From Candidatus Omnitrophota bacterium (lineage in GTDB: Bacteria; Omnitrophota; Omnitrophia; Omnitrophales; Aquincolibacteriaceae), in the NCBI GenBank assembly GCA_035368605.1, contig DAOSLF010000009.1, forward strand, positions 7,079 to 71,078: a stretch of 64,000 nucleotides of DNA, in the 5' to 3' direction. Position 1 is the stretch's first letter. Each line of letters opens with the position of its first letter. The notes beneath the pieces are model-generated. The model was not told the DNA's origin. It saw only the letters and a program-made list of their open reading frames with translations, and made no database searches. Both the position numbers and the translations under genes were made by a program. Shown piece after piece: positions 40,717 through 59,110 of this stretch.

Positions 40717-42807
40717 TTAAAAGAACTTTTCCCCTTCCAGGACCTTTTTGGCCTTTTGGGCGATGGGATCCTTCATAAAATAGTTCTGGATAGCCCCTTT
40801 CCTGAGATGGTTCGCGATCGCGAGAAGGCTCATCCCCTGATCCAGCGCCAGATATTGATACGTGACCTGCCCGTTCCGGAGATTAATGCTGTCATAAAAA
40901 CCGTATTCGCCGTAAACATCATATTCCTGGAGCATTTTTCTGAGGTTTTTCACGGCATCCGACGGAAGGGTTTCCAGCGCGAGAAAACTGACGTAAGGGG
41001 CGATAACGCTTTTGTCCGGATAGCCCTTCGCTCCCAGCTTCCGGATACCGTATTCCCCATAAATCCACTTCCGGCCGCTTGCAAGGGCTGCCGGCGAAAT
41101 CCCCCAGACCGGATACCCTTTTTCTTCAAGGGCATAATCCCGGTGGATCTCGGTAGCGATCCTGTTGTTTGGCTTGAAGCTTTGAGGCGCAAGCCTGCCC
41201 TCCGGAATAACGAGCGTGGGCATAAGAAATTCAAAAAGAGACCCGCCCCAGCTCGGAACAATCTTTTTGGAATCCACAACGTAATGGCCCTGGAAATACC
41301 CAACGCCTTCCCGCGCCTCCCAGGTTCCCACGGGTTTTTGTGTCTGCCAAACCCAGGCTTCCGGCGCCGTTCGGAACAGATACCACCAATGATCTTCGGG
41401 AAGGTCCCCCTTTCCGATCCCGATAAAACTCATGGTTCGCGCCTCGGTCACGAGCATCCCATAATGATATGGGGTCAGCCCCTTGCGCTTCATGTCATAG
41501 CCAATCGCTATGTGACTTGTGTCAGGGTCCAGGAACTCCCCGAAATTCATCTCATCCAGAATCTTTCCGGATTCCCGGGCGACATGCCCCGGGAACGCCT
41601 GACGCGCCACGATCATCGCCGCCGCAAGCCACGCGTTATCAACGCTGGAAACGAACTCTCGCGACACGGAAAGCTTGTTCGTTTCATAGAAATTGTAGAA
41701 AAACCCATTCCACCGCTTGAGTTTTTGGAGGACATCCAGGATTTCCCCGACGCGTTTTTCCGCTTCGGGTTTTTTGATGTACCCGAGCTCAAGCGCGGCA
41801 ACCGTTCCCATAAGGTCCATGGCTATGTTTGTTGGCGACGTGTAAACGCCCGCCATCGGGGAATCCCCCACTTTCACGTGATCGAGAACCAGGTTGCTGT
41901 TCTTGTCGGCCGCTTCATTGAAAAAACGCCAAGTGCTCCGGCCGATCAAGTCGAGAAATTTGTCGTCGTTCCTGGTTGCCAACAATTGCTTCTTTCCTTC
42001 ATAGTCCTTCACAACCCTGGGAAAACCCTTGAGGTTGTCGAGTACGCTCTCGAATCCCACTTCGTTGTTTCCGAAGAAGGCGATCTCGTCGAGCCAAAGT
42101 GACGCGCGGGATCTTTTTCCGCGCCCGATCGCGGTGAATGCGATCCGGGACAGCTGGTCGAAATCGAGCCCCTTGAAGAATTCCACGGGGAGCACCGCGT
42201 CTTTCCATTGCCCCGCGTCCACGCAAGCGTCCGTGATATCGCGGGTCACCGACCGGCCGGTCCAGTCGGTGAGGCTGACCCGGATCCGTCCTTCAAACTT
42301 TGTTTTTGCTTTGGGTTCAAGGCGGCACTTGATGGCCAAAAAACGCGCCTGGCTCATATCGAGTCTTTCGAGCGAGGTATAAAGCGTGAACTGCTGCCGG
42401 TCCTTCATATCAAAATCCATCTTGAGGGAGTGCCCCGGCCGAAGGCCGCGCGCGTCCTCTTTTGCGAGCTCCATGGTGACTTCGCCGGCCTTGGCGTTCT
42501 CGAGCCGCCAATAGCTGTTGAGACGGCTCTTCCATTCCTTGCCGTTGAAATCGTCGACCACGCAGAATCGGGGAGATGTGAGAAGGGACTTGTTCGGAGG
42601 AAGGGATTGATAAATCTGGGGGGCATCAAACTGGACCACATCGTCGATCCCGCCCCGAGCGTCATTGGCCCTAGCCGCAAGCGGGTCCGCCGGTTTCTTG
42701 GCTTCGGCCGCGATCGCTGTCCCGGCACAGGAGAGACACACCAGAGCAAAAAAAACGTTCCTCAGGACCATCGCAGCTCCTGAAGAACGCTTTCTTCGCG
42801 ATCTCAT
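40717..42807 (-). CDS. secreted hypothetical protein, possibly glycoside-hydrolase-like
   Basis: Signal peptide (AGTAIAAEA), 696 aa. Located downstream of a GH94 phosphorylase and an SBP. Functional call by context only. Confidence 0.4.
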   Translation of the reverse strand: MRSRRKRSSGAAMVLRNVFFALVCLSCAGTAIAAEAKKPADPLAARANDARGGIDDVVQFDAPQIYQSLPPNKSLLTSPRFCVVDDFNGKEWKSRLNSYWRLENAKAGEVTMELAKEDARGLRPGHSLKMDFDMKDRQQFTLYTSLERLDMSQARFLAIKCRLEPKAKTKFEGRIRVSLTDWTGRSVTRDITDACVDAGQWKDAVLPVEFFKGLDFDQLSRIAFTAIGRGKRSRASLWLDEIAFFGNNEVGFESVLDNLKGFPRVVKDYEGKKQLLATRNDDKFLDLIGRSTWRFFNEAADKNSNLVLDHVKVGDSPMAGVYTSPTNIAMDLMGTVAALELGYIKKPEAEKRVGEILDVLQKLKRWNGFFYNFYETNKLSVSREFVSSVDNAWLAAAMIVARQAFPGHVARESGKILDEMNFGEFLDPDTSHIAIGYDMKRKGLTPYHYGMLVTEARTMSFIGIGKGDLPEDHWWYLFRTAPEAWVWQTQKPVGTWEAREGVGYFQGHYVVDSKKIVPSWGGSLFEFLMPTLVIPEGRLAPQSFKPNNRIATEIHRDYALEEKGYPVWGISPAALASGRKWIYGEYGIRKLGAKGYPDKSVIAPYVSFLALETLPSDAVKNLRKMLQEYDVYGEYGFYDSINLRNGQVTYQYLALDQGMSLLAIANHLRKGAIQNYFMKDPIAQKAKKVLEGEKFF

Positions 42808-42819
42808 GAATGCGCTCCG

Positions 42820-45276
42820 CTAGCCGAGCGTGACTTCCACCCGGTGGCTTTGTCCGTCCCGGAAATCAGGGATCAGCGTGCCAGGTTGTTTCTTGCCGTC
42901 GACGATCAGCTCCTTAACGCCCTGGCCTTTTCCGCCATTCTTGACCTCAATCATGTAGGTCGTCCCGCGGAAGAGGCGTTTCATCCTGTAGCCCGGCCAT
43001 CGCTTCGGGATCACAGGATCGACGATCAGACCTTTGGCCGTCGGACGAATGCCGAGCAACCAGTTCAGCGCGACCACGGCATACCAGGCGCCGGAACCGG
43101 TGTACCAGGTCCAGCCACCGCGGCCATTGTTCGGAGAATCCGGGCCATCAACGTTGCCGGGCGTCACATACGGTTCCGCGAAATAAAGGTCCGGGTCGAG
43201 CCCGCGGAGGATCGGGTTGAAACTTTTGTAGACCTGATAGGCCTTTTCGCCGTCCCGCATCATCGCTTCGGCCTGAATCGCCCAGGTGCCGGCATGCGTG
43301 TAAAGTCCGCCGTTTTCGCGGACGGAGGGCGCGTAGCGCGTAATGTAGCCGATCGTGGGGTCGGTCTTGTTGTAGCCCGGCGTTAACAGCAGCGGCCCGT
43401 ATTTCTTGTAAAGCCACTTCGCGGCCGAGTTCATCGCGACCCGGGACCGCTCTTTGTCCGACACGCCCGTGATCACGGCCCACGTCTGGCAGTTCAGGAA
43501 TATCTTTCCTGTTTCGCAGGAGCGACTGCCAAGCGGGCGTCCGTCATCGCGCGTTGCGCCGAGGTACCACTCGCCGTCCCAGCCGTCCTTGTTGAGCGCT
43601 TCTTTCAGCGCCTCGGCGCGGTGAAGGTATTTTTTGGCTTTCGTCTTGTCGCCGCGCTCCTTCATGATCGGAGCGATCCGGTTCAGGATGCCATAAAGGA
43701 AATGCCCGAGCCAGATCGACTCGCCTTTCCACTTGATACCGACGTGGCTCAACCCGTCGTTCCAGTCGCACTCGCCGATCAGCGGGAGCCCGCGCGGCGA
43801 AAAACGCGTCAGCGCCTTATCGATCGCGCGAAGCAGATGATCGTAAAGGGAGCCCGATGTGACCCTCTTCGCCGGGTCCTTGGGATCCGGGAGAAAATTC
43901 ACGTCGATATCGAGGATCGCGCGGTCGTCGGTCTCGTCAAGATAGTTCAGCGTGATAAAATCGAGCCACAACAGATCGTCCGAACACTGCGTGATCGCCC
44001 CGATGTTGGTCCCGTGGTGCCACCAGTGATATACCGTTCCGTCCGGGAACTGCTGTTCGGCGTGCAGGAGAATCTGTTTTTTCGCCAGCTCGGGACGTGT
44101 TGCGAAGAAAATCTGGCAGTCCTGGAGCTGGTCGCGGAAGCCGTATCCGCCGCTCGATTGATAGTAGGCGCATTTTCCCCAGAGCCTCGCCGAGATCGCT
44201 TGGTACTTGAGCCATGTGTTCGTCATGAAGTTCATCGCCTCGTCCGGCGTTTCCACTTCGGTCGCGTGAACGAAGGAGTCCCAAAGCGCCCGGACCCTGG
44301 CGAGTTCCCGGTCCGCGTTCTTCGGGTCCTGATATTTCTTGATGATGCGCACGGCTTCATCGCGGGTCTTGGTCGAGCCGAGCGTGAAGATCACCGTTTG
44401 GGACTGCTTCGGAGCCAGATCGACATCGACCTGAAGACTCGCGGATGCATCTCCCCACTTTCCCTCGGAGTTGCGGCATTTGCCTTCCACGACCGCGGAG
44501 GGGGCGCTTTGTTCGCCGTATCGGCCGAGAAATGATTCTTTGTCGCCGTCAAAGGCAACGGGCTTCGGGAACGAACTGTGAAATCCCTGCAGCGGTTTTT
44601 CGGTCATGCCCGTCGAGATGAAACCGGGAACGAGCGGCGCGCGCTTCAGGCCGTGCAGGCATCCGTTCTTCCGGTCGCTCCAGACTTCGATAAAGGTTTT
44701 GTGGAACTCGCGATGGGTGTCCCCGGCATTGCCAAGACACCAGTCAAAATAAGTAAAAAGGCTGAGGCGGCGTTTTTGGGCCGTCTCGTTCGTCAGAACA
44801 ACCTTCCAAACCTCGACCGGATCCTCGACATCGACAAAGATTGTCTTCTCGAAACGGATTCCGTTCAGCCCGGTCGTTGTCACGGTATATCCCTGCCCGT
44901 GACGGACTTCGAAAAAGTCGTATTTCGGCATGCAGGGTTTCCATGTTCCCGACCAGTATTTACCGCTGTCCTTGTCGCGGAGATAGATGTACTTTCCCCA
45001 GTTGTCACGGATGAGATCCTGGTCCCAGCGCGTGATGCGCGAAAGGTTCGAGTTGTCGCGCCAGGAAAAACCGGAGCCGGTCTGTGTTTCGATCGTCCCG
45101 TAATCGCCGTTGGAGATTACGTTGACCCATGGTCGCGGCGTGTCGGGCCGCGTGATTACGTACTCCCGGCCGTCCGGCGTAAAGTAACCGTATTTCGAAG
45201 CGAATTTCTTGCCGGTCGTCGCGGAAGTTTTCGCTTTCATTTTCGTTTTGATTTTTTTTGTGCCGGTCTTGCTCAT
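42820..45276 (-). CDS. GH94 glycoside phosphorylase (cellobiose/cellodextrin phosphorylase-like)
   Basis: N-terminal YGYFTPDGREYVITRPDTPRPWVNVISN and catalytic region YQSSGGYGFRDQLQDCQI are GH94 hallmarks. About 800 aa. Confidence 0.85.
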   Translation of the reverse strand: MSKTGTKKIKTKMKAKTSATTGKKFASKYGYFTPDGREYVITRPDTPRPWVNVISNGDYGTIETQTGSGFSWRDNSNLSRITRWDQDLIRDNWGKYIYLRDKDSGKYWSGTWKPCMPKYDFFEVRHGQGYTVTTTGLNGIRFEKTIFVDVEDPVEVWKVVLTNETAQKRRLSLFTYFDWCLGNAGDTHREFHKTFIEVWSDRKNGCLHGLKRAPLVPGFISTGMTEKPLQGFHSSFPKPVAFDGDKESFLGRYGEQSAPSAVVEGKCRNSEGKWGDASASLQVDVDLAPKQSQTVIFTLGSTKTRDEAVRIIKKYQDPKNADRELARVRALWDSFVHATEVETPDEAMNFMTNTWLKYQAISARLWGKCAYYQSSGGYGFRDQLQDCQIFFATRPELAKKQILLHAEQQFPDGTVYHWWHHGTNIGAITQCSDDLLWLDFITLNYLDETDDRAILDIDVNFLPDPKDPAKRVTSGSLYDHLLRAIDKALTRFSPRGLPLIGECDWNDGLSHVGIKWKGESIWLGHFLYGILNRIAPIMKERGDKTKAKKYLHRAEALKEALNKDGWDGEWYLGATRDDGRPLGSRSCETGKIFLNCQTWAVITGVSDKERSRVAMNSAAKWLYKKYGPLLLTPGYNKTDPTIGYITRYAPSVRENGGLYTHAGTWAIQAEAMMRDGEKAYQVYKSFNPILRGLDPDLYFAEPYVTPGNVDGPDSPNNGRGGWTWYTGSGAWYAVVALNWLLGIRPTAKGLIVDPVIPKRWPGYRMKRLFRGTTYMIEVKNGGKGQGVKELIVDGKKQPGTLIPDFRDGQSHRVEVTLG

Positions 45277-45317
45277 GGTGGGACGATCGCTCCTTTGGGA
45301 TTTCGGAAGAAAACGTC

Positions 45318-46607
45318 TTATCTTTTCAGCGTCGCATTGATCTCCGCGGCCACTTCCTTGATAACTTCTTCCGCGCGTTTCTTGCCGTTGAAAACAAGCT
45401 CGAGCCTGGGCTTGAGGATCTTCTCCTCAATCTCACGCCATTGCGGATGGAGGGGGCTGAAAACCACATGCCGGACCGCCTCGTTCAGCATTTTCTTGTT
45501 CGCGGGAGGTTGGGGATCGTTGGCAAAGGCATCGCCTTTGGCGACCTCGATGCGCGCGGGCTGGGAAAGTCCCCGTTTCGCAAAAAGCTCCTGCCCCTTT
45601 GGACCGGTAAGCGCCTTGATCACTTCCCACGCTTCTTTTTTATGTTTGGAGGATTTCAGAATGCAGTAGCCCGTTCCCCCCGTCCCGAACGCGCGGACGC
45701 CCGCCGCGTTCTTCGGGAACATTACGACGTCCCAGCTGATGTTGTAATTGCGAAAAAGCGGCGTCTCCCAGATTCCGGAAAGAAACATCGCGACGCGGTC
45801 GTTGGCAAACATCCGGTCCGCCCCCATACCGAAGTTCATGAACGCCATCGGAGTCGGCATGACGCCGTAAAGATTGCTCATGTCAGAGTAGAACTGTAAT
45901 CCCTCGATGGTCTTCGGATCATCGAGCATCGTCCGCGTCGGATTCTTGACGTCGTCGACCAGGGCCCCGCCGTTCCCGTAAATGAAGTTCTGCCACGCCC
46001 ATCCGTAGAAGCCATACTGCGTCACACGGCCCGATTCGTCTTTTTGGGTCAGATCGCGCGCGATCCGCAGAAGGTCATTCCAGGTCCAGTCGTCCGTCGG
46101 ATAAGGAAGCCCCGCGGCATCGAAGAGTTTCTTGTTGTAATAGACACACGCAAACGGCGCGATGTCTCTCGGCAGGGCCATCAGTTTTCCGTCGTAGGTG
46201 AAGCGGTCTATGATCTGCGGAAAAAAATCGTCCTTGCGAAAACCGGAAGGGTCCTGATCAACATACGGCGTCAGATCCTCAAGAACTCCCTTGGAGGCGA
46301 AAGTCACGAAGTAGTCCACTTCGGTCGCGATGATGTCGGGCGCGGCGCCTCCGGCGATGCGCGTCAGTATCTTGCTTGTATAGCCGGTATAGGGGGTATG
46401 CTCAAAAACAACCTTGATCTCGGGGTGTTCCTTCTGCCAGTCGGAAAGCGCCTGGGTGATGATATCGATCTCTTCCGGAGTCCCCCAGAAGCTGACCTTG
46501 ACCCCGGTTTTTCCGTCGTTCCTGGGGCCGGCTCCGCACCCGGAAAAAACAAAGCTTGTTAAAAGAACGGAATAAACGAATAAACGCATCACCCATTTTA
46601 TTTTCAT
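45318..46607 (-). CDS. ABC transporter substrate-binding lipoprotein (SBP family 1, sugar type)
   Basis: Lipoprotein signal (LTSFVFSGCGAG) and a sugar-SBP-like fold. No adjacent permease or ATPase genes. Confidence 0.75.
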   Translation of the reverse strand: MKIKWVMRLFVYSVLLTSFVFSGCGAGPRNDGKTGVKVSFWGTPEEIDIITQALSDWQKEHPEIKVVFEHTPYTGYTSKILTRIAGGAAPDIIATEVDYFVTFASKGVLEDLTPYVDQDPSGFRKDDFFPQIIDRFTYDGKLMALPRDIAPFACVYYNKKLFDAAGLPYPTDDWTWNDLLRIARDLTQKDESGRVTQYGFYGWAWQNFIYGNGGALVDDVKNPTRTMLDDPKTIEGLQFYSDMSNLYGVMPTPMAFMNFGMGADRMFANDRVAMFLSGIWETPLFRNYNISWDVVMFPKNAAGVRAFGTGGTGYCILKSSKHKKEAWEVIKALTGPKGQELFAKRGLSQPARIEVAKGDAFANDPQPPANKKMLNEAVRHVVFSPLHPQWREIEEKILKPRLELVFNGKKRAEEVIKEVAAEINATLKR

Positions 46608-47107
46608 TGTGGTGATCCCTTTGCTGAAGGGTTATCTGTTTTCGTTCGACGCCCGCTTATGTACAGGAAAGTCCCAAGAAGCGCGTGGATTATAGCACGC
46701 GACCTTTCGAAGTCAACGGCTTGCCTTTTGCTTGTCCAGTCAAAATAGAAATGTCCGGTTTTCAGGTTGTAGGTGAGTCGGCGTGTATCACATGAATCCC
46801 GAGATCCTCGGCCGCGCGCTGAAACTGGCTCTTCGCTCTCCGGCCGGCTAACTCGTCTTCGATCGTTTGCCGTTTCGGAAAATGGCAGGTCATGTGCTTA
46901 TCCAAATACAACGACGCGAGTATGCCATAACGCTCTATATATCATATCCTCTTAACGACCTCATCGCAGGCAAGGATATTTCCCTTGATAAAGATCCAGG
47001 ACCCGGGTTTTGAACGGAGCAGGACATTATCATTTCGGGATTACATTTCCAGCCTCTCGGCTTATACCTGCCGCTTGATAACCGCGCCGTGGCTGGATAG
47101 TCCCGTT

Positions 47108-48853
47108 TTAATTCGGATCGGAGATGAGGTGGTTGCTGTAGTCAATGGCCGCACCGGACTGGTCGAATTGGCCGGCCGAAGGAGGCGCGGCACCCCACCA
47201 GTTATGCTGTGCGGTTATGGCGCCTACCGTCTTGTTCTGGAAGTCGCAAATGGTGTTTCCGTATATTGAGTTATTGCCTATGGAGCCGAGTGCCCCGCCT
47301 CCGAAGTCCGCGGCCAAGGCTAACGTATAGCCGGCACTGCCCGCTATAACACCGTAGCCGCCGGAGGCAAATACGTTATTGTAAAAGGATCCGGTAAAGC
47401 TTGAGGCAGTCTGGGACCAGATCCCAAGATTTTCCACTGTGCTGCCGGTTACATTGTTGTTATAAACGGTGGCTGTGATGGACGATGAATTTTTTAAGTA
47501 AAAGTTAATGCCATACTTATTCCCTGTTACCGTATTATTCGCAATTGTTGTCGTTACAAGGTTGGCGCTGTCCGAACGCATCCAGATGGCTTCTCCACCA
47601 TTGTTTGTAACAGTGTTATTAGATATGACAAGATCGCTTACAACAGCGGAGGTTCCGGGAATATAGACCTGGATCCCTTTTGTTTTATTACCGGTAGTCG
47701 TATTGTAAGAGATATCGGCAAAGTCGACGGAAGTATTGCCGGCTAGATAAAGATAAACTCCGGAACCGTTGACGCTATTATTATAAATATTATTTCTTAC
47801 GCGCAAATCCTTTATGGATGAATTATCACTTAAAGCAACAACCGCACCATGGCTCTTGTTATTCGATGACACATTATCCGTTATGTAGACGCTCTCTATC
47901 ACAGAATTGTTGTATGGATAAACGCTTATGCCGGCAAAACCCGTATTATTTGACATGTCATTACCGGAGATCCGAATAGATCCGGTGGCGTTGGTCTTAA
48001 AATCAGCCACTATGCCGCGCGCATTGCCCGTAGAGGTGTTACCATCTACGTGAAAAACGGCATTGGCGTTGTCATCGGCCAGCAGATATATGCCATGACT
48101 GGTATTGCCGGTCATGGAATTACCGGATATCGCGTAAGTCCCTGCGATCGTCCCGCCTATGTCCAGATGAACACCTTCGCCGGTGTTCCCGGTTATGGTG
48201 TTATGCCGGATAGTTGTGTTTTGGATGTCGATGCCGTATATACCCCTGGATCCGTTCTGTATCGTAAATCCCATCACGGTGTTGTTATTGGCAAGGGTCA
48301 TCACGTCGGCGCCGGAACCGTCCACAACCGGAGCGCCGGTCGTGGGTATCCCCGCAAACCCTCCGCTATGACCGGCTCCCCACAAAGTAACGTTATTTGC
48401 GAGAGTGACAGTCTCCGCGTAAATTGCATTGCCCTCTTTTACATATACCCACTTGTCTCCCACAGCGTTATTGACGCCGGCCTGGATGGTGGTGTAGGGC
48501 CTCTCCAGGGAACCGTCGGAGACGCCCGTATAGGAGTTATCGACATACGTCAGATCATGCACTTTTGTCTCTTCGATCGGTGCGACGGACTTCCCGGTCG
48601 TGACATCAATATCCCTCACCACGCGGTCAACCATACGCTCCCTCAACGGACGGACGCCTTTCTGGTATTTGAAGTATTTGCCGAATCCGTCAAACAAAGC
48701 GTTCACCTTGAACACATTGATCGTCTCAAGAGGTATCGTGATAAAACCGCCCACGAAACAGTCCGTGCCATTGTGGTTATCCCTCTTGAGCTCGACCTCG
48801 AAGGTCAGCGCACGAATGGGACGGAGCTCGACGCGGCCCTTGATGCCGGACAT
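47108..48853 (-). CDS. parallel beta-helix repeat passenger domain (C-terminal part of a frameshifted surface protein)
   Basis: Long array of N-x-T/S-rich right-handed beta-helix repeats (NNTVTGN, GNTSTGN ...). The reading frame stays open upstream to a TAG at about 48917 and joins ORF 48777..49532 if one C of the C6 run at 48886-48891 is removed. Confidence 0.6.
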   Translation of the reverse strand: MSGIKGRVELRPIRALTFEVELKRDNHNGTDCFVGGFITIPLETINVFKVNALFDGFGKYFKYQKGVRPLRERMVDRVVRDIDVTTGKSVAPIEETKVHDLTYVDNSYTGVSDGSLERPYTTIQAGVNNAVGDKWVYVKEGNAIYAETVTLANNVTLWGAGHSGGFAGIPTTGAPVVDGSGADVMTLANNNTVMGFTIQNGSRGIYGIDIQNTTIRHNTITGNTGEGVHLDIGGTIAGTYAISGNSMTGNTSHGIYLLADDNANAVFHVDGNTSTGNARGIVADFKTNATGSIRISGNDMSNNTGFAGISVYPYNNSVIESVYITDNVSSNNKSHGAVVALSDNSSIKDLRVRNNIYNNSVNGSGVYLYLAGNTSVDFADISYNTTTGNKTKGIQVYIPGTSAVVSDLVISNNTVTNNGGEAIWMRSDSANLVTTTIANNTVTGNKYGINFYLKNSSSITATVYNNNVTGSTVENLGIWSQTASSFTGSFYNNVFASGGYGVIAGSAGYTLALAADFGGGALGSIGNNSIYGNTICDFQNKTVGAITAQHNWWGAAPPSAGQFDQSGAAIDYSNHLISDPN

Positions 48854-49532
48854 GTTCTTGCTGAGTTCCGGAAAATAATGGGTAGCCCCCCAAAAATGCT
48901 CGGGTCTCTACAAACTCAGAAACCACGGGAAGAAGCATGCCCGCCTCATAATCCAGGCCCCGCAGCGCTTCTTCATAAGTTGGCGTCGTCATTTTGACCA
49001 GACTGCGGGACCGGAATCCATAGCTCGTGTCTTCCGAAACAAGCTTTTTGTCGGAAATGGGAAAATAAAAATTGGCCCTCGCATCCACCCACTTCGTGAG
49101 ACCCTCCAGACCGAATCCCAGCTGGTGATGCCGGACCTTGTTCCCGGTATACCGGGTATCATAGAAAAAATTGCCCCCGGCAATAAACTCCTCATCGAAT
49201 AAAAGTCCTCTCGCGCCTATCCCGATGTTCTGCTCATTGGAGCCGTGAGGGCCTATCACGGTCTTTGAATCCGCAAAAAACAAACTGTCGGTGGTACCCG
49301 CCACGGGTATCAGGTTATCGATATACGTCAAAAAACGGCCGTCACCGCCTCTTACCCCGGGCATCACCTGGGCGGGCCACTCTTGGGGGGCTTCCAGAAA
49401 CCAGAACTCCCCGGACCCTTCAACGCCTCCGGCGGCAGGACTATGTGATGAGGCGTTGGCAAACAGCACTCCGGAAGAAAAACGGGAAAAAACAAAAACC
49501 AGAAATACACAACAAAAAAAGAACTTTTTCAT
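48777..49532 (-). CDS. N-terminal signal peptide plus outer-membrane beta-barrel domain of the same surface protein (inverse-autotransporter-like)
   Basis: Signal peptide MKKFFFCCVFLVFVFS, then amphipathic beta-strand pattern. Its 3' end overlaps the beta-helix ORF in the +1 frame. Confidence 0.5.
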   Translation of the reverse strand: MKKFFFCCVFLVFVFSRFSSGVLFANASSHSPAAGGVEGSGEFWFLEAPQEWPAQVMPGVRGGDGRFLTYIDNLIPVAGTTDSLFFADSKTVIGPHGSNEQNIGIGARGLLFDEEFIAGGNFFYDTRYTGNKVRHHQLGFGLEGLTKWVDARANFYFPISDKKLVSEDTSYGFRSRSLVKMTTPTYEEALRGLDYEAGMLLPVVSEFVETRAFLGGYPLFSGTQQEHVRHQGPRRAPSHSCADLRGRAQEG

Positions 49533-49646
49533 GTCACCTCACAGAACCGCCGGACGCCGCTATGGCTCCCGGAACAAAGTATCGGGAAATCTCAATTTCT
49601 ATCGTCGCTTTCCGGTTTTCCTTGACCGACATCCCAGGACGCGGTT

Positions 49647-50618
49647 CTAACCTCGCGGGAGATTGATTTTTTGGAGAATGCGGTCCAGGTCATCAAGGGA
49701 CGCGTAATGTATTTCAATGCGCCCTTCCCTCTGATTTTTTTTGGGATATATTTTTGTTTGAGCGCCGAGATGGTGGACAAGACGATTCTCAAGATCGACG
49801 ATTTCGGGACTCAAATGACGGGCTGTTTTTGCTTTTCTCTTGTGAGCATTGCTTCGGTTCACAATTAGCTCAACCTGGCGGACCGAAAGGTTTTCCTCCA
49901 CAATACGTTTTGCCATCTGGCGTTGATGCTCCGGCGTCAGTAAACCCAGAAGCGCCCGCGCGTGACCAGCTGTGATCTGTCCGGCCGCAAGAAAGGTTTT
50001 GACTTCCTCGGGCAGACGGAGAAGGCGGATCGTGTTTGTGACGGTGGTCCTGTTTTTGCCGACGCGTTTCGCGACTTCGTCCTGCGAAATAGCTCTCTGC
50101 TCCATAATCCGCTGATAAGCCTCGGCTTCCTCCAGCGGGTTCAGATCCTGCCGCTGAATGTTTTCGATCAGCGCCCATTCGAGAAAATCCTCCGAAGCCA
50201 CATCTTTAACAACGGCGGGCACTTCCGTCAACGCGCAGGCTTTGGCGGCGCGAAGGCGGCGCTCACCGCATATAAGCCGGTATTGATCCGGTCCGACCAT
50301 TTTTACGATCACCGGCTGCAGTATCCCTTTCTCACGAATGGAGCTTGCCAGTTCATCAATGGCAACGGGATCGAAATGTTGACGCGGCTGATTTTCGTTC
50401 GGCACGATGTGGTCGATGGGGATCAGCCTGAATGCGCCCTGCGGCTTTGCGGGCGCGGACACCGCAGCCTGACCAGACTGTGTTGCTGCAGGCGCCGAGG
50501 ACACGCTCATGGCCGGTATCGCTGCAACCGAAGATGTTTTTTTTGTTTCCGCCTGCTCCCTGAGAAAACCATCCGGGATCAGTGCGCTTAATCCTTTGCC
50601 GAGGGCTTTTTTCGTCAT
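49647..50618 (-). CDS. parB: chromosome partitioning protein ParB (Spo0J)
   Basis: ParB N-terminal box (GERRLRAAK, QPVIVK) and HTH. Confidence 0.9.
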   Translation of the reverse strand: MTKKALGKGLSALIPDGFLREQAETKKTSSVAAIPAMSVSSAPAATQSGQAAVSAPAKPQGAFRLIPIDHIVPNENQPRQHFDPVAIDELASSIREKGILQPVIVKMVGPDQYRLICGERRLRAAKACALTEVPAVVKDVASEDFLEWALIENIQRQDLNPLEEAEAYQRIMEQRAISQDEVAKRVGKNRTTVTNTIRLLRLPEEVKTFLAAGQITAGHARALLGLLTPEHQRQMAKRIVEENLSVRQVELIVNRSNAHKRKAKTARHLSPEIVDLENRLVHHLGAQTKIYPKKNQREGRIEIHYASLDDLDRILQKINLPRG

Positions 50619-50650
50619 AGAAGAGCTCCTTTCGCGATCCTTCCGAGGAT

Positions 50651-51517
50651 TTATTGAGCAACTTGTGTCTGTTCGTCCGCCGGTCCGGCGTCTCCAGGTT
50701 CTTGCTGGATTGCTGCGGGCGGCTCGCTTGCGATTTGTGCACGATCCGCCTCCGTTCCAAATCGTCTCAAAAATTCATTACCAAGCTCCACATAGGCTTG
50801 CGATCCGCGGTTCTGTGGGTCGTAAATGACCGCGGGCTTGCCAAAGCTTGGAGCCTCCGAAAGTTTTACGGATCGGGGAATCACGGTGTCGAACACCTTA
50901 TCGCTGAAATAGCTCCGAACCTCATCGATCACTTGTTTGGTGAGGTTTGTCTGGAAGCTGGCCATGGTCAAAATAACGCCGCCGAGTTCCAGAGAATCGT
51001 TGAGGCTCTTCTTTACCAGCTGGTACGTATTTAACAGAGAGCTCAATCCTTCGAGCGCATAGTACTCACACTGCAGAGGTATAATTATGTAACTACTTGC
51101 AGATAAAGCATTTATGCTAATAAGCCCAAGCGATGGGGGGCAGTCCAGTAAAATAAAATCAAAAGCATCGGCTATTTTTTCAAGCTGTCTCTTAAGGACA
51201 AATTCCCGGTTTTCCTGATTGATAAGCTCTATCTCAGCCCCAGCCAGATGAGCGTTAGACGGTATAACAGACAAATTTTCAATAACTGTCGGTTTTATAA
51301 CATCAGATGGCTTTGCGTTTTCCACAAGAAGTTGATATGCTGTGGATTCATTTTCATTTTTCTCTAAACCAACGCCGCTCGTTGAGTTACCTTGAGAATC
51401 AAGATCTATCAGAAGTATCTTTTTCCCTTTTTGAGCCAATACTGTGGCTATGTTTATAACCGATGTTGTTTTTCCAACACCACCTTTTTGATTAAAAAAA
51501 CAGAACACCTTTCCCAT
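50651..51517 (-). CDS. parA: chromosome partitioning ATPase ParA (Soj) with acidic C-terminal tail
   Basis: MGKVFCFFNQKGGVGKTT deviant Walker A. ATG at 51517 preferred over the upstream GTG at 51532. Confidence 0.9.
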   Translation of the reverse strand: MGKVFCFFNQKGGVGKTTSVINIATVLAQKGKKILLIDLDSQGNSTSGVGLEKNENESTAYQLLVENAKPSDVIKPTVIENLSVIPSNAHLAGAEIELINQENREFVLKRQLEKIADAFDFILLDCPPSLGLISINALSASSYIIIPLQCEYYALEGLSSLLNTYQLVKKSLNDSLELGGVILTMASFQTNLTKQVIDEVRSYFSDKVFDTVIPRSVKLSEAPSFGKPAVIYDPQNRGSQAYVELGNEFLRRFGTEADRAQIASEPPAAIQQEPGDAGPADEQTQVAQ

Positions 51518-51531
51518 GAGAACCCTCCGCA

Positions 51532-51547
51532 CGTTTCACGTGAAACA
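51532..51547. promoter_or_regulatory. parS site (cGTTTCACGTGAAACa)
   Basis: Matches the 16-bp parS consensus TGTTNCACGTGAAACA (15/16). Sits 15 bp upstream of the parA start. Confidence 0.7.
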
Positions 51548-51783
51548 TAAACAACTGACGAGCTGGCGAAACCGTCTTCAGTCTACTCTTCACGCACGCT
51601 TTGTTCAATTTCTTTTTTCATTTATAATATGATCGCCTGTCGAACACATAAACCTCTTAAATAAAATCAGCTCCTGGTTCTATGGGTTATTTTTCGAAAG
51701 AAATATCTCTACGACATACAAAATCATGCCACGGATAACTGTATGTTATTTTATTATAATATGATAGCGTTTTATGTGCTTTG

Positions 51784-51799
51784 TGTTTCACGTGAAACA
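51784..51799. promoter_or_regulatory. parS site (TGTTTCACGTGAAACA, perfect consensus)
   Basis: Exact 16-bp palindrome matching the canonical parS. Confidence 0.75.
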
Positions 51800-51918
51800 A
51801 CCATGATTTGCTCTGATGATTAGACCGATCGAGTCATTGCCAATGGATATCATAAGGAATCGGTGGAATACTGACAGTACGCTTGTCTCAGAAAAACGCG
51901 AGCGATTTTTGCGGAGGA

Positions 51919-53736
51919 TTATTTTTTGCTGGCGAGTCTTGCAATGTGGACTGCGAGCAGGGAAAGGTCGCACGATGAAATTCCTGGAATGCGAGACGCT
52001 TGACCTATGGAGTCTGGCTTTATCTGTTTTAGTTTTTCTTTCGCTTCCCGGCCAATCCCGTTCACGGTGTCGTAATCGACTTCGTCTGGAATTTTTCTCT
52101 TTTCGACTTTCTTGAAATTTTTGACCTCGATCATCTGTCGGGCGATATACCCTTCGTATTTTATCTCTGTTTCAAGATAATGGGCTTCGTTATCATCTAA
52201 CTTTGATGAGTGTATCTTGTTGTCTGTCAATGCTTTATAGCTTGCTTCGGGCCTTTTTAGATAATGATATAGCGTATCGTTTCCTATCCGTGTTTCTCTG
52301 AGCTTTTTCAGATCATATTCAATGGCCCGTTTCCGCTTGGCAAAGGCGTCGCGTTCCGCCTCACTCACAAGGCCCGCCTGGTAGCCATACTCCAGGAGCC
52401 GCATGTCCGCATTGTCCTGTCTCAGCAAAAGCCTGTATTCCGCGCGCGAGGTGAACATACGATACGGTTCCTTCGTTCCGCAGGTCACCAGGTCGTCGAT
52501 CATCACCGCAATATAGGCCTCCGTCCTGTCCAAAATGAACGGCTCTTCTCCGCGAAGTCTTTTGATGACATTGATTCCCGCCATAAGTCCTTGCGCCGCC
52601 GCCTCTTCGTATCCCGAAGTGCAGTTGATCTGGCCCGCAAGGAACAAACTTTTGATCTTCTTGTTCTCCAGCGTGTGCTTTTGCTGTGTCGGCGGAGCCG
52701 CGTCGTATTCGATCGCGTATCCAAACCTCAGGATTTCCGCGTCCTCAAGCCCCTCGATCTTGTGCAACGCCGCATCCTGGACGTCTTTCGGAAGCGATGT
52801 CGAGAAGCCATTCACATAAATCTCGTTTGTGTCCCGTCCCTCGGGCTCGAGATAGATCTGATGCCTTTCCTTTTCCGCAAATTTTACGATCTTGTCCTCG
52901 ACCGACGGACAGTAGCGGGCTCCGATGCCGGCGATCCGTCCGGCGTAAAGAGGGGACCGGTGCAAGTTGTTGCGGATGATGTCATGCGTTTCAGTGTTGG
53001 TATAAGTGAGCCAGCAAGAAAGCTGGTCCACTTTCCGGTTTTTGGTCCGGTGGGAAAAAAACGGGGGAGGCTCGTCTCCTTTTTGTTCCTCGAGTTTGTT
53101 CCAGCGGATACTTTTACGGTGAAGCCGCGGAGGCGTCCCCGTTTTGAATCGCACGAGATCGATTCCGTGCGCGCGCAAAGAGTCCGAGAGGCCCACCGCG
53201 GGCGGTTCGTCGCGCCGGCCGCCGGGACACTTCTCTTCACCGACATGGATCAGCCCCTGCAGGAACGTTCCGGTCGTCAGAATTACGTTCCTCGCGAAAA
53301 AAGTCTCTCCTTCTTTCGTGCGAACTCCTCGACAGGCTCCGTCTCCGACGAGAATCTCCGCGACTTCGCCCTGCTTCAGGGTGATGTTTTTTTCTTCATC
53401 CAACGCGCGCTTCATGTAGCGCTCGTATTCATACTTGTCCACCTGCGCGCGGGGCGCCCAAACGGCGGGTCCCTTGGACCGGTTGAGCATGCGGAACTGG
53501 ATTCCCGTGGCGTCCGTGGCGCGGCCCATTTCTCCGCCAAGCGCATCGATCTCGCGGGCCATGTGCCCCTTGGCAAGGCCTCCGATGGCGGGATTGCATG
53601 ACATGCGCGCGATCGCATTCGTGTCGAGGGTAAGAACAAGGACGGGAAACCCGCCGCGCGCGATCGCAAGGGAGGCTTCTACGCCGGCATGACCGGCGCC
53701 TACTATGATGGCGGCGTATTCCCGGGTGGAATTCAT
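51919..53736 (-). CDS. mnmG: tRNA uridine 5-carboxymethylaminomethyl modification enzyme MnmG (GidA)
   Basis: FAD-binding N-terminus (AIIVGAGHAGVEASLA) and full-length GidA homology. Start set at MNSTREY; the ORF-track 112-aa N-terminal extension is rejected. Confidence 0.9.
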   Translation of the reverse strand: MNSTREYAAIIVGAGHAGVEASLAIARGGFPVLVLTLDTNAIARMSCNPAIGGLAKGHMAREIDALGGEMGRATDATGIQFRMLNRSKGPAVWAPRAQVDKYEYERYMKRALDEEKNITLKQGEVAEILVGDGACRGVRTKEGETFFARNVILTTGTFLQGLIHVGEEKCPGGRRDEPPAVGLSDSLRAHGIDLVRFKTGTPPRLHRKSIRWNKLEEQKGDEPPPFFSHRTKNRKVDQLSCWLTYTNTETHDIIRNNLHRSPLYAGRIAGIGARYCPSVEDKIVKFAEKERHQIYLEPEGRDTNEIYVNGFSTSLPKDVQDAALHKIEGLEDAEILRFGYAIEYDAAPPTQQKHTLENKKIKSLFLAGQINCTSGYEEAAAQGLMAGINVIKRLRGEEPFILDRTEAYIAVMIDDLVTCGTKEPYRMFTSRAEYRLLLRQDNADMRLLEYGYQAGLVSEAERDAFAKRKRAIEYDLKKLRETRIGNDTLYHYLKRPEASYKALTDNKIHSSKLDDNEAHYLETEIKYEGYIARQMIEVKNFKKVEKRKIPDEVDYDTVNGIGREAKEKLKQIKPDSIGQASRIPGISSCDLSLLAVHIARLASKK

Positions 53737-53816
53737 TTTCAGTACGGGGTACGGAGTCCGGGGTGCGGCGAAAAACGAGTGTTCTTCAGCTCCGCACGCC
53801 GTACTCCGTGTTGTTT

Positions 53817-55439
53817 TTACTGGTCTTCGTGATGTAGAACGACGGCGATCCGGTTGATGAAAACCTGCTGGATGATCGAGAACAGGTTCTGGAGCGTCCA
53901 GTAAAGCGTCAATCCGGACGGCATGTTGTAGCAGATGAACCCGAAAAAGATCGGCATCAAATTCATGATTGCGGCCTGTTCGGGCGTCGAACCGGGCTGC
54001 TGCGGTATGGTCTTCTGATACCAGACCTGGGAGGCCGCCATCAGGATCGGAAGAAGGTTGAGCGAGTTCCATCCGAGAAGCGGCAATGACTGTCCGAACG
54101 TGACGAGCCGGTCAGGCGCCGAAAGGTCCGTGATCCAGCCGATGAACGGCGCGCCGTGCAGTTCGATCGCTTCGGGGAGCAGGCGGAACATCGCGATGAA
54201 GATCGGAATCTGGATCAGCATCGGCAGGCATCCCATCACGGGGTTGACCTTGTTCCGGCGGTAGAGCTCCATAAGCTCCCGCTGTTGTTTCTGCGGATCA
54301 TTTTTGTAGTGTTCCTGGAGCGCCTTCATCTTCGGCTGGATGGCCTGCATCTTTTTCATGTTGGCGTAGCTGACATGGGTGAGCGGCGCGAACACAAGTT
54401 TGATCAGGAGCGTGAGCAGGACGATCGCCCATCCGAAGTTATGCGTGAACCCGTAAAAAAACTTCAGAACCGCGAGCAGGATCGTCTTGAATCCTCCGAA
54501 GAATCCCCGGGAGAAAACATTCTCGAAATCAAAACCGAAACTCTTCAGTGTTTCATAGCGCTGCGGCCCCGCATAGACCAGGAAACGCTGAGACCCTTCG
54601 CTCCCCGGGGCAACGGTGAGAGGCTGCGGGTCAAGGGTTCCCGCTATGACCTCCCCGTCGGCCCGCGCGGACCCCGAGGCAATCCTGTTGTCGGGTTTCA
54701 CCAGCAACGCGAAATATTTTTTGATCATGCCACCCCACACCGCCCCCTCGGGGACGGCAAAACCTTTCTTTTTCAGCTTCCCGAGATCGGCTGTATAAAG
54801 TTTTTCCGTGTAGGCCACGGCATCGAAGAACCCGTAGTTCTTTTGATAATCTTTCTCGTGGTTCATCCCGTAGGTCACCGTCGCGGGAAAGACCCTTTCG
54901 CGCGATGACAGGTTCTTGATCCGCACCGTGAGATCGATCACCGGCTTGTCGTCCCGCACCGTGAACGTTTTGGTGAGGATGTATTGCCCGGGAAGCTCAT
55001 AAGCGAACTCGAACGTCTCATTCTTTTCTCCGCGGCGCGTCATTTTGAAGATCGTGTGCGCAAGATCCGCTGTTTCTCCTCTCAGGTTAACGGCGAAAAT
55101 GCCGCCGGTCCGCTCCGGCGCATTAAAGAACTCTGTTTTGGTGAACGCTTCCCGTCCCGGCTCTCCTTTATAGAAAAGCCGCGTAACCGTTCCTCCCAGC
55201 GTGGAAAACTCGATCTGATAAAGCGCGTTTTCAAAGAGCGCCGTGGTGGCTTCCGCCGCTTCCCGGAGATAGGTCGTTTGGCTCGGCGTCAATGGCGCTT
55301 CGGTGGCCGCGGAAGAAGCGCTGGTCGCGACGGGTTTCTGCATCGCATTCGGGTAGAGCCATTTCACAAAAACGGGATAAAGTATGAAAATAAGGGCGGA
55401 AACGACGACAGCCTTCAAAAAGTTTTTTTCCATGCTCAA
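53817..55439 (-). CDS. yidC: membrane protein insertase YidC
   Basis: N-terminal TM, large periplasmic domain, and C-terminal 5-TM 60KD_IMP core (PLTHVSYANMKKMQAIQPKMKALQ). Confidence 0.9.
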   Translation of the reverse strand: MSMEKNFLKAVVVSALIFILYPVFVKWLYPNAMQKPVATSASSAATEAPLTPSQTTYLREAAEATTALFENALYQIEFSTLGGTVTRLFYKGEPGREAFTKTEFFNAPERTGGIFAVNLRGETADLAHTIFKMTRRGEKNETFEFAYELPGQYILTKTFTVRDDKPVIDLTVRIKNLSSRERVFPATVTYGMNHEKDYQKNYGFFDAVAYTEKLYTADLGKLKKKGFAVPEGAVWGGMIKKYFALLVKPDNRIASGSARADGEVIAGTLDPQPLTVAPGSEGSQRFLVYAGPQRYETLKSFGFDFENVFSRGFFGGFKTILLAVLKFFYGFTHNFGWAIVLLTLLIKLVFAPLTHVSYANMKKMQAIQPKMKALQEHYKNDPQKQQRELMELYRRNKVNPVMGCLPMLIQIPIFIAMFRLLPEAIELHGAPFIGWITDLSAPDRLVTFGQSLPLLGWNSLNLLPILMAASQVWYQKTIPQQPGSTPEQAAIMNLMPIFFGFICYNMPSGLTLYWTLQNLFSIIQQVFINRIAVVLHHEDQ

Positions 55440-55648
55440 TCCTCGACAGGGTCATAGCCGCCCGGATGGAACGGGTGGCATTTGCAAACACGTTTTGCCG
55501 AAAGCCATAAGCCTTTCCAGAAACCTTTTTTGGCAATGGCTTCTTCGGCGTAATGGGAACAGGTGGGTTCAAACCGACAGGCCGGTCCGATCAACGGGGT
55601 CATAACGGCCCGGTATGCTTGGAACAACCAGGAAAAAAATCTTTTCAT
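55436..55648 (-). CDS. yidD: membrane protein insertion efficiency factor YidD
   Basis: IGPACRFEPTCSHYAEEAIAKKG...CHPFHPGGYDP is the canonical YidD motif. Confidence 0.85.
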   Translation of the reverse strand: MKRFFSWLFQAYRAVMTPLIGPACRFEPTCSHYAEEAIAKKGFWKGLWLSAKRVCKCHPFHPGGYDPVED

Positions 55649-56019
55649 ACAAGAATGCCCGTTCTCCGGAAAAGTTCGCCGAGATCCCGATTCGTCTGTT
55701 CCTGGTCGGGTATCGCGCGCCCTTCTCTTGCTTTCACGAGGATCGCGATCCCGGGACGAAGCGCCCCCTGCGTCGCGCGGAACGACTCTCTGACCCTTCG
55801 TTTGATCAGGTTGCGTCTTGTGGCCCGAGCCTGGGTTTTTTTACTCACGACCACACCCAGCGCCGGTCTCGCCGACGGCTCGATCCCGACCGCCGACTTC
55901 TCGCCGGCCCAGACATAGAAAAAACGACCTCGTGCGAAAGTGCCCTTTTTGACGAGGTTTTTAAAAGCCGCCTGCCCGCGAAGCCGTTGCTCCGCCGTAA
56001 AGCGCTTTTCGTTTTTCAA
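55645..56019 (-). CDS. rnpA: ribonuclease P protein component
   Basis: RnpA fold motifs (LGVVVSKK...RNLIKRRVRE). TTG start abutting the rpmH stop. Confidence 0.8.
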   Translation of the reverse strand: MKNEKRFTAEQRLRGQAAFKNLVKKGTFARGRFFYVWAGEKSAVGIEPSARPALGVVVSKKTQARATRRNLIKRRVRESFRATQGALRPGIAILVKAREGRAIPDQEQTNRDLGELFRRTGILV

Positions 56020-56157
56020 TCAGACTTGGGTCAGGCGCTTTCTGCCTTTGCGGCGACGGCGCGCGAGGATTTTTCGCCCGCTTTTCGTCCGCTTGCGGGC
56101 CAGAAAGCCGTGTTTGGAACGACGTTTTCTTTTGGAGGGCTGATAGGTCCGTTTCAT
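56020..56157 (-). CDS. rpmH: 50S ribosomal protein L34
   Basis: Translated by hand as [45 protein letters not shown] (45 aa), which is canonical L34. It is not in the ORF track because it is under 60 aa. Confidence 0.85.
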
Positions 56158-59072: not shown

Positions 59073-59110
59073 ACGGTAAAAAGCGCCGATAACAGAGCGC
59101 AAAGCATACG

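What the first reader, a model, noticed from the sequence alone, without database searches (positions are those of the whole stretch)
47108..49532. About 808-aa beta-barrel plus beta-helix surface protein gene split by +1 frameshift at a C6/A5 homopolymer
ORF 48777..49532 encodes a signal peptide and an outer-membrane beta-barrel-like domain. ORF 47108..48853 encodes a long parallel beta-helix passenger domain. They overlap by 77 nt in adjacent frames.

Reading the minus strand across 48886-48891 (plus-strand CCCCCC followed by AAAAA) with one fewer G fuses them into a single open frame: ...ETRAFLGATHYFPELSKNMSGIKGRVELRP... This gives an N-terminal barrel followed by a C-terminal beta-helix, the inverse-autotransporter (type Ve) topology.

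The break sits exactly on a homopolymer tract. It is therefore one of three things: an assembly or sequencing indel, a genuine pseudogene, or a slipped-strand phase-variation switch for a surface adhesin.
Basis: seen in the sequence. Interest (0 to 1): 0.55.

Follow-up and report, generated by a model that had tools for sequence, protein, structure and literature searches.

The report
Frameshifted inverse-autotransporter adhesin gene, not phase-variable
A surface-protein gene of an uncultured Omnitrophota bacterium is broken by one extra base that is fixed in a single clone, so it is an ordinary loss-of-function mutation and not a homopolymer on/off switch.

Summary
The two overlapping minus-strand ORFs (48777-49532 and 47108-48853) are real. 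They are two halves of one 807-aa inverse autotransporter (type Ve): signal peptide, intimin/invasin-like barrel, short linker, C-terminal beta-helix. Pfam IAT_beta spans the junction. The predicted barrel best matches invasin 4E1T and intimin 4E1S. About 60 homologues, mostly Omnitrophota, are single proteins.

The break is not in the G6/T5 tract. All 11 closely related sequences recovered, intact or split, have T5G6. Split alleles carry one extra C four bases downstream (minus strand ACC-ATT becomes ACCC-ATT; plus 48880-48882).

The five split sequences, from different sample records, are 100% identical over 5.6-7.7 kb. Every intact allele differs from them by at least 22 substitutions. This is the only indel in 12.7 kb against a 99.4%-identical strain.

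It is most likely a recent, stable 1-bp insertion in one clone, which cuts the barrel and leaves the passenger without a signal peptide. Phase variation is not supported and assembly error is unlikely. The architecture is already described. Interest is low.

The parts
47108..49532 (-). Whole interrupted gene. Removing one C at 48880-48882 gives an 807-aa inverse autotransporter.
   Evidence: The 99%-identical intact orthologue P0001 (OQA41851, Ca. Omnitrophica ADurb.Bin314) is 807 aa.
49534..49540 (-). Shine-Dalgarno-like GAGGTGA, ending one base upstream of the ATG at 49532.
   Evidence: Read from the sequence. The internal ATG at 48853 has no such motif upstream.
49452..49532 (-). Signal peptide, residues 1-27: MKKFFFCCVFLVFVFSRFSSGVLFANA.
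   Evidence: The sequence has a KK n-region, a hydrophobic core and an A-N-A motif. The model shows a helix at 2-27 followed by a disordered stretch. No dedicated signal-peptide predictor was run.
48740..49370 (-). Inverse-autotransporter beta-barrel, residues ~55-264 of the intact protein, interrupted after codon 217.
   Evidence: Pfam PF11924 IAT_beta scores 58.6 bits (cut-off 22.3) over residues 71-256 and spans the junction. The model has 14 strand segments between 55 and 264 at pLDDT >90. The best PDB fold matches are 4E1T, 4E1S and 5G26, with TM 0.75-0.79.
48880..48882 (-). The lesion. The window has CCC on the minus strand (GGG on plus) where all intact alleles have CC, a +1 nt insertion after codon Tyr217.
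48886..48896 (-). T5G6 tract (plus strand C6A5). It encodes Phe-Leu-Gly-Gly and is identical in intact and split alleles, so it is not the site of the break.
   Evidence: G215 and G216 are conserved in 49 of 54 homologues.
48777..48779 (-). Premature stop (TAA) of the shifted frame. The product would be 217 native residues plus 34 out-of-frame residues.
48575..48739 (-). Linker, residues ~265-319. It has a low-confidence loop at 271-279 and short helices at 278-286 and 296-301.
   Evidence: R299, R306 and D307 are invariant in the family.
47108..48574 (-). Right-handed parallel beta-helix passenger, residues ~320-807, with a conserved C-terminal NWWG...DPN end; includes the stop codon.
   Evidence: Pfam DUF1565, Beta_helix and NosD all score above their cut-offs. 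NCBIfam gives a partial LIC10774-family hit. The model shows regular three-strand coils at pLDDT ~96-98. The family profile hits beta-helix carbohydrate enzymes and tailspikes.

Best explanation
The locus is a single gene for a type Ve (inverse) autotransporter of an uncultured Omnitrophota bacterium.

How the intact protein would work (inferred from the family):
- It would be exported by Sec.
- Its N-terminal intimin/invasin-like barrel would be inserted into the outer membrane.
- The C-terminal parallel beta-helix would be threaded out through the barrel and displayed on the cell surface. It probably acts as a carbohydrate-binding adhesin or a polysaccharide-active enzyme.

What happened in this strain:
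- A single C was inserted after codon Tyr217 (plus 48880-48882), inside one of the last barrel strands.
- Translation from the true start now ends after 217 native plus 34 out-of-frame residues. That product lacks the last three to four barrel strand segments and the linker.
- The passenger ORF has neither a signal peptide nor a ribosome-binding site.
- The gene is therefore a recent loss-of-function (pseudogene) allele, fixed in one clone that has been sampled repeatedly.
- It is not a homopolymer phase-variation switch and not an assembly artefact.

Shown here: gene unity, fold, position of the lesion, invariance of the homopolymer, and linkage to one haplotype. Inferred: loss of function, surface display, and the role of the passenger.
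For: One gene:
- IAT_beta spans the junction.
- About 60 homologues are single proteins with IAT_beta plus Beta_helix.
- The family consensus ETRxYxGGYxYF runs across the break.

Fold:
- The AlphaFold model has pLDDT 90.8 and pTM 0.78.
- The top PDB matches are the invasin and intimin barrels, at E 1.8e-10 to 3.3e-9 and TM 0.75-0.79.

Lesion:
- The extra C is at 48880-48882.
- T5G6 is present in all 11 sequences.

Real, not an error:
- L002-L005, from four other sample records, are 100% identical to the window over 5.6-7.7 kb, including the extra C.
- At least 7 contigs carry the 581-aa product.
- Six other strains with the identical local context lack the extra C.
- It is the only indel in 12,662 nt against L001, which is 99.38% identical.
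- Five other adjacent ORF pairs in the window were tested and none is a split gene.

Single event:
- Split alleles differ from each other by 0 substitutions, and from every intact allele by 22-95.
- None of 11 distinct intact proteins equals the repaired window protein; the minimum is 6 differences.

Recent:
- There is no second stop or indel.
- pN/pS against intact alleles is 0.12-0.45.
- L010 differs by only 1 substitution in the first 900 nt.

No SD-like motif precedes the internal ATG at 48853.
Against: - No reads were available, so a minority intact subpopulation within this clone cannot be excluded.
- The independence of the five samples is not established. Some JGI, Logan and TPA records may be re-assemblies of the same or sister libraries, and a literature search for the accessions found nothing.
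- Loss of function is inferred, not measured.
- The T5G6 run sits immediately upstream of the insertion and could in principle allow rare +1 slippage.
- The split haplotype's two private substitutions, both non-synonymous, are too few to demonstrate relaxed selection, and they fall at variable positions.
Confidence: 0.82

Rival explanations
1. Slipped-strand phase variation. Under this reading the homopolymer tract changes length at high frequency and switches the adhesin ON and OFF within a population.
For: - A G6 run preceded by T5 lies in the 131-nt stretch where a 1-nt change restores the frame.
- Only 2.2% of windows of that size contain a G/C run of 6 or more.
- Surface adhesins are classic phase-variable genes (general knowledge).
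Against: - The tract is T5G6 in 11 of 11 related sequences, whether intact or split.
- ON and OFF states differ at a C2/C3 run, not at the tract.
- OFF is confined to one haplotype, and no ON copy occurs on that haplotype.
- The G6 run is explained by the conserved Gly-Gly motif.
- From general knowledge, six bases is shorter than the homopolymers that usually drive phase variation.
- The suspected second tract in the signal-peptide region does not vary in length. The 786-aa forms are gene-caller start choices.
Confidence: 0.03
2. Sequencing or assembly artefact. Under this reading the genome really carries the intact gene and the extra C is a consensus error.
For: - The window comes from a metagenome-derived assembly.
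- The lesion is a 1-nt indel next to homopolymers.
- Some of the agreeing records may share underlying reads; independence was not verifiable.
Against: - Five contigs of different lengths from different records and assemblers agree exactly.
- Six other strains with the identical 40-nt context, assembled from similar data, lack the insertion, which argues against a context-specific error.
- It is the only indel in 12.7 kb against L001.
- No other split gene was found among the ORF pairs tested.
Confidence: 0.07
3. Frameshift bypass. Rare +1 ribosomal slippage, or transcriptional slippage, on the T5G6 run just upstream of the insertion would restore some full-length protein, so the allele would be leaky or down-tuned and not null.
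For: - In the upstream frame the run reads TTT TTG GGG GGC, so a Gly-tRNA on GGG could re-pair one base downstream on GGG.
- The shifted frame is open from 48910.
- The product would differ from wild type at only two residues.
Against: - There is no stimulatory element such as a stop or rare codon at the site, and no known +1 frameshift motif.
- The tract pre-exists in intact alleles, where slippage would be harmful.
- The runs are shorter than those known to cause efficient transcriptional slippage (general knowledge).
- The resulting G-A-T replaces the conserved G-G-Y: A is found in 2 of 54 and T in 0 of 54 homologues.
Confidence: 0.03
4. Functional split. Under this reading the barrel fragment and the beta-helix fragment are expressed separately and still work, for example as a barrel-only or two-partner-like inverse autotransporter.
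For: - Barrel-only inverse autotransporters, and ZirT-type systems with separate substrates, are described (PMC4943183).
- Both ORFs are called and named separately in public annotation.
Against: - The barrel fragment ends inside the 11th of 14 strand segments, so it lacks the remaining strands and the linker and carries a 34-residue nonsense tail.
- The passenger ORF has no signal peptide and no SD-like motif, and its ATG lies 77 nt inside the upstream ORF.
- No homologue shows this split.
Confidence: 0.02

Closest known systems
Intimin / invasin (type Ve secretion, inverse autotransporters; Pfam PF11924 IAT_beta; PDB 4E1S, 4E1T)
   Same: - N-terminal signal peptide, then a barrel with a significant IAT_beta match.
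- The best structural similarity is to the intimin and invasin barrels.
- A linker and a C-terminal passenger follow, which is the same domain order (PMC6555100).
   Different: - The passenger is a parallel beta-helix and not a chain of Ig-like (Big) domains capped by a lectin domain.
- There is no LysM periplasmic domain.
- Sequence identity to the invasin barrel is only ~16%.
- The host is an environmental Omnitrophota bacterium, not an enteric pathogen.
- In this window the gene is frameshifted.
Inverse autotransporters with a C-terminal 'pectin lyase' fold domain, noted by Heinz et al. 2016 (PMC4943183)
   Same: The architecture is the same: an invasin_beta/IAT_beta barrel fused to a pectin-lyase-like right-handed beta-helix (Pfam Beta_helix, NosD and DUF1565).
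   Different: That survey used UniProt of 2016 and did not report Omnitrophota. Whether those proteins are orthologous to this family was not tested here.
Classical (type Va) autotransporters with beta-helix passengers, such as pertactin and EspP
   Same: They also have a beta-helical surface passenger and a 12-stranded barrel. The EspP, BrkA, Hbp and NalP barrels appear as weaker fold matches.
   Different: The domain order is opposite, with the barrel C-terminal in type Va. Their barrels match much less well (TM 0.3-0.37, against 0.75-0.79 for intimin and invasin).
Homopolymer-driven phase-variable surface protein genes (contingency loci, for example in Neisseria, Haemophilus and Campylobacter)
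   Same: It is a surface-protein gene found in both frameshifted and intact forms among close relatives, with a G-run near the break.
   Different: - The run does not vary.
- The indel is elsewhere, in a 2->3 nt run.
- The OFF state is clonal.

Membership tests
Inverse autotransporter (type Ve secretion) | Barrel domain matching the IAT_beta / invasin_beta family profile above the curated threshold | tested here: met
   PF11924 scores 58.6 bits against a cut-off of 22.3, E 9.5e-16, over residues 71-256. A phmmer hit to invasin 4E1T has E 3e-4, and the family profile hits it at E 1.3e-8.
Inverse autotransporter (type Ve secretion) | Barrel fold like the solved intimin and invasin 12-stranded barrels | tested here: met
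   Foldseek ranks 4E1T, 4E1S and 5G26 first, at E 1.8e-10 to 3.3e-9 and target-normalised TM 0.75-0.79. The model has pLDDT >90 in the barrel. DSSP gives 14 strand segments.
Inverse autotransporter (type Ve secretion) | Inverted order: signal peptide, N-terminal barrel, linker, C-terminal passenger in one polypeptide | tested here: met
   This holds for the intact allele P0001 and the repaired window gene. In the window itself the polypeptide is interrupted after residue 217.
Inverse autotransporter (type Ve secretion) | Linker occupying the barrel lumen and passenger exposed on the cell surface | not testable with these tools
   The model's coordinates could not be inspected, and surface exposure needs experiment (protease shaving or immunolabelling).
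Inverse autotransporter (type Ve secretion) | Typical passenger of Ig-like (Big) domains with or without a lectin cap (typical but not obligatory; PMC6555100) | tested here: not met
   The passenger is a parallel beta-helix: Pfam Beta_helix, NosD and DUF1565, with no Big domains. A pectin-lyase-fold subgroup is already accepted within the family (PMC4943183).
Simple-sequence-repeat phase-variable (contingency) gene | Repeat tract whose length differs among close relatives or reads | tested here: not met
   T5G6 is present in 11 of 11 sequences spanning 97-100% identity. Read-level variation was not testable.
Simple-sequence-repeat phase-variable (contingency) gene | ON and OFF states differ by tract length | tested here: not met
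   The states differ by CC versus CCC at 48880-48882, outside the tract.
Simple-sequence-repeat phase-variable (contingency) gene | Both states occur on the same genetic background (reversible switching) | tested here: not met
   All split copies are one identical haplotype. Every intact copy differs from it by at least 22 nt in 2.7 kb, or at least 6 aa.
Pseudogene (recent loss-of-function allele) | Reading frame disrupted relative to intact orthologues, with the lesion inside an essential domain | tested here: met
   The +1 nt insertion falls after Tyr217, inside barrel strand 209-219. The intact state is ancestral by the family consensus.
Pseudogene (recent loss-of-function allele) | Lesion is real in the organism's DNA | tested here: inconclusive
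   Five concordant assemblies and the specificity of the indel argue that it is real. There is no read-level check, and the independence of the samples is unverified.
Pseudogene (recent loss-of-function allele) | No functional product made | not testable with these tools
   This needs a proteome, a transcriptome or a reporter assay.

The most novel reading that the evidence does not exclude
The most novel reading not excluded is that the frameshift allele is not null. Low-frequency +1 slippage on the T5G6 run immediately upstream of the inserted C would restore some full-length adhesin. The clone would then display a strongly down-tuned, stochastically expressed surface protein, which would amount to translational or transcriptional 'phase variation' without any DNA change. 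A milder version is that loss of this adhesin is adaptive and helped this clone spread across digester communities.
Probability: 0.04. Interest if true: 0.5.

Novelty: new member of a known kind. Interest (0 to 1): 0.2.

Why it matters
Mainly as a correction.
- A frameshift near a homopolymer in a surface-protein gene looks like a phase-variation switch. Comparison with close relatives shows that the tract is invariant and that the lesion is an ordinary 1-bp insertion fixed in one clone.
- It also serves as an annotation note. The two public entries, HOE68935 ('inverse autotransporter beta domain-containing protein', 251 aa) and HOE68934 ('DUF1565 domain-containing protein', 581 aa), are fragments of one 807-aa gene.

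Of modest biological interest, Omnitrophota carry a sizeable family of inverse autotransporters with beta-helix passengers. These could be attachment or polysaccharide-active surface proteins in a phylum thought to include host-dependent nanobacteria. Natural strains evidently differ in whether this gene is intact.

Tried and rejected
1. G-tract repair. It gives an open frame, but it is wrong, because intact alleles keep G6.
2. A second possible switch in the T-rich signal-peptide region (T7/T8 runs in some alleles), suggested by the 786-aa cluster members. The 5' region is in frame and of equal length in all alleles. The 786-aa forms are internal-ATG gene calls on alleles with Val22Met.
3. 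An exact-pattern scan of metagenome contigs and of genome contigs for more alleles gave only one new locus each, L006 and L007. Further alleles came from exact-protein look-ups.
4. A search for paralogues of the gene in the window found none.
5. A search for other split genes in the window, as evidence of an error-prone assembly. Five adjacent ORF pairs were tested and all are separate genes or have no domain split between them.
6. A test for relaxed selection after the break. There are only two private substitutions, both non-synonymous and at variable positions, which is uninformative.
7. Literature look-up of the sample accessions to establish independence found no papers. Searches for inverse autotransporters in Omnitrophota found nothing specific.
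8. The promoter/terminator scan of 46600-49800 showed nothing beyond chance.
9. A small ORF at 46762-46911 was suspected to be a transposase relic. It has no Pfam hit and no similarity to the IS3 transposase of L009.
Full report
**Observation.**
The window carries, on the minus strand, a 251-aa ORF (48777..49532) and a 581-aa ORF (47108..48853). They overlap by 77 nt in adjacent frames. The minus strand reads ...GCA TTTTT GGGGGG CTACCCATT..., with the G6 run at 48891-48886 and the T5 run at 48896-48892. Deleting one G yields one open 807-codon frame.

**One gene, and what kind.**
- On the repaired protein, Pfam IAT_beta (PF11924, inverse autotransporter beta-domain) matches residues 71-256 at 58.6 bits (cut-off 22.3). 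That stretch runs straight across the junction at residue ~217.
- DUF1565, Beta_helix and NosD cover the C-terminal two thirds.
- The only solved structure found by sequence with E below 0.001 is the invasin barrel 4E1T.
- A database search returned 66 homologues. Nearly all are single polypeptides of ~590-1300 aa, and most carry both IAT_beta and Beta_helix. Those with names come mostly from Candidatus Omnitrophota MAGs.
- A 54-sequence alignment gives a conserved motif ETRxYxGGYxYF exactly at the junction. G215 and G216 are each present in 49 of 54 sequences, Y217 in 43 (F in 9 more), and Y219 in 44 (F in 10 more).
- AlphaFold2 on that alignment gave a confident model of the intact orthologue P0001, with mean pLDDT 90.8 and pTM 0.78. 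It has a signal helix at 2-27, 14 strand segments between 55 and 264, a short linker with helices at 278-286 and 296-301, and a long regular beta-helix from ~320 to ~770.
- Foldseek against the PDB ranks invasin 4E1T and intimin 4E1S/5G26 first (E 1.8e-10 to 3.3e-9, target TM 0.75-0.79). They sit well above porins and classical autotransporter barrels.

The protein is therefore a type Ve inverse autotransporter with a beta-helix passenger. The review literature describes type Ve passengers as typically Ig-like or lectin-like (PMC6555100). Heinz et al. 2016 already recorded a subgroup with a C-terminal pectin-lyase-fold domain (PMC4943183), so the architecture is known.

**Where the break really is.**
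The best hit, P0001 (OQA41851, Ca. Omnitrophica bacterium ADurb.Bin314), is an intact 807-aa protein 99% identical to the repaired product. Its DNA (L001) also has T5G6.

Aligning it to the window shows that the only length difference is one extra C in the window. The minus strand reads GGGGGGCTACC-ATT in L001 and GGGGGGCTACCCATT in the window (plus 48880-48882). This is four bases downstream of the G run.

The intact junction reads AFLGGYHYFPELS, which fits the family motif.

Any 1-nt deletion between 48910 and 48779 would fuse the frames. In this window 55% of 131-nt stretches contain a homopolymer of 5 or more, and 24% one of 6 or more. The G6 run is simply the coding of Leu-Gly-Gly.

**Population survey.**
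Exact-protein look-ups and pattern scans recovered ten related loci.
- The split form is in L002 (GCA_029553765.1), L003 (JGI 3300025682), L004 (JGI 3300010344) and L005 (Logan SRR4236665), besides the window. At least seven contigs carry the 581-aa product.
- The intact form is in L001, L006, L007, L008, L009 and L010.
- All eleven sequences have T5G6. The five split ones have ACCC and the six intact ones have ACC.
- The split sequences are identical to each other across the 2.7-kb gene region and to the window over their whole 5.6-7.7 kb.
- Each intact allele differs from the split haplotype by 22-95 substitutions, and the intact alleles differ from one another by 10-95.
- None of the 11 distinct intact proteins in the 90% cluster equals the repaired window protein; the minimum is 6 residue differences.

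So the OFF state is tied to one clone, and no ON state was seen on that background. That pattern points to a single mutational event and not to reversible switching.

**Error or real?**
- Against L001, 12,662 nt align at 99.38% identity with 77 mismatches and exactly one indel, which is this one.
- Against L010, the only indel inside genes is again this one.
- Other strains share the identical local context without the extra base, which argues against a context-specific sequencing artefact.
- Five other adjacent same-strand ORF pairs in the window are ordinary separate genes.
- I could not verify from metadata that the split-allele samples are independent libraries, and I had no reads. A residual doubt therefore remains.

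**Consequences of the lesion.**
Translation from the true start has a GAGGTGA Shine-Dalgarno-like motif upstream. It would give 217 native residues plus 34 out-of-frame residues and stop at 48779-48777. The break lies inside strand 209-219, the 11th of 14 strand segments, so the remaining barrel strands and the linker are lost.

The 581-aa ORF starts at Met227 of the intact protein. It has no signal peptide and no SD-like sequence, and its ATG lies inside the upstream ORF. A working surface protein is therefore not expected.

The lesion looks recent.
- There is no second stop or indel.
- pN/pS between the repaired split haplotype and the intact alleles is 0.12-0.45.
- The nearest intact allele (L010) differs by one substitution in the first 900 nt.
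- The split lineage has two private substitutions, both non-synonymous (T462I and A785S). They lie at positions that vary in the family, so they say little.

**Likely function of the intact protein (inference).**
- By analogy with intimin and invasin, the sequence of events would be Sec export, BAM/TAM-assisted barrel insertion, and hairpin-mediated export of the passenger (PMC6555100).
- The passenger profile resembles beta-helix carbohydrate-active enzymes and phage tailspikes, namely alpha-1,3-glucanase 7C7D, mannuronan C5-epimerases and polygalacturonase.
- Its C-terminus partially matches a Leptospira surface-protein family.
- The gene sits next to a sugar-binding protein, a GH94 phosphorylase and a glucoamylase-like gene.
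- A glycan-binding adhesin or a surface glycanase is the most plausible role. This is untested.

**Verdict.**
The inverse-autotransporter reading is right. The phase-variation reading is not supported, and an assembly error is unlikely. The best explanation is a recent, stable 1-bp insertion that inactivates the gene in one clone. This is an ordinary strain-level pseudogene in a known protein architecture, so interest is low.

Noticed in passing
window ~46876 (intergenic, ~230 nt downstream of the gene); L009 3560-4766: In L009 an IS3-family element (HTH_Tnp_1 and rve ORFs) begins where similarity to the window ends, at 46876. The L006 and L008 alignments stop at the same point. This is a strain-variable junction, probably an IS insertion, in the intact-allele strains.
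   Followed up: partly
window 47108-48574 (passenger); proteins P0071, P0074, P0075: The intact alleles are mosaic. P0071 and P0074 differ from the window's repaired protein at 35-36 residues, almost all between residues 462 and 785. P0075 carries a cluster of changes at residues 530-568. The barrel is nearly invariant. This suggests recombination blocks or diversification in the exposed beta-helix.
   Followed up: partly
window 49647-61938: The gene is origin-proximal. gyrB (59401-61938), dnaN (57972-59072) and dnaA (56497-57846) are on the plus strand. yidC (53817-55439), mnmG (ORF 51919-54072), parA (50651-51532) and parB (49647-50618) are on the minus strand, directly upstream of the autotransporter gene.
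   Followed up: yes
window 51749-51923: The intergenic stretch between mnmG and parA is rich in small indels when compared with strain L010: 12 gapped positions in ~175 nt. The flanking genes align without indels.
   Followed up: no
window 40717-46607: Immediately downstream lies a carbohydrate-use cluster: an extracellular solute-binding protein (45318-46607), a GH94 phosphorylase (42820-45276) and a glucoamylase-like protein (40717-42807). The passenger's profile resembles beta-helix glycan-active enzymes.
   Followed up: partly
public records HOE68934.1 / HOE68935.1 (identical to window ORFs 47108-48853 and 48777-49532): Public annotation lists the two fragments as separate proteins, 'DUF1565 domain-containing protein' and 'inverse autotransporter beta domain-containing protein', without flagging a frameshift. 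In addition, several intact orthologues are called 21 residues short (786 aa) from an internal Met, which drops the signal peptide.
   Followed up: yes
window 55615-56361 (+), 59881-62055 (-), 28691-29915 (-): Several long ORFs have no Pfam match at E<=1e-5. The 724-aa ORF at 59881-62055 lies antisense to gyrB, so it is probably spurious. The others were not examined.
   Followed up: no
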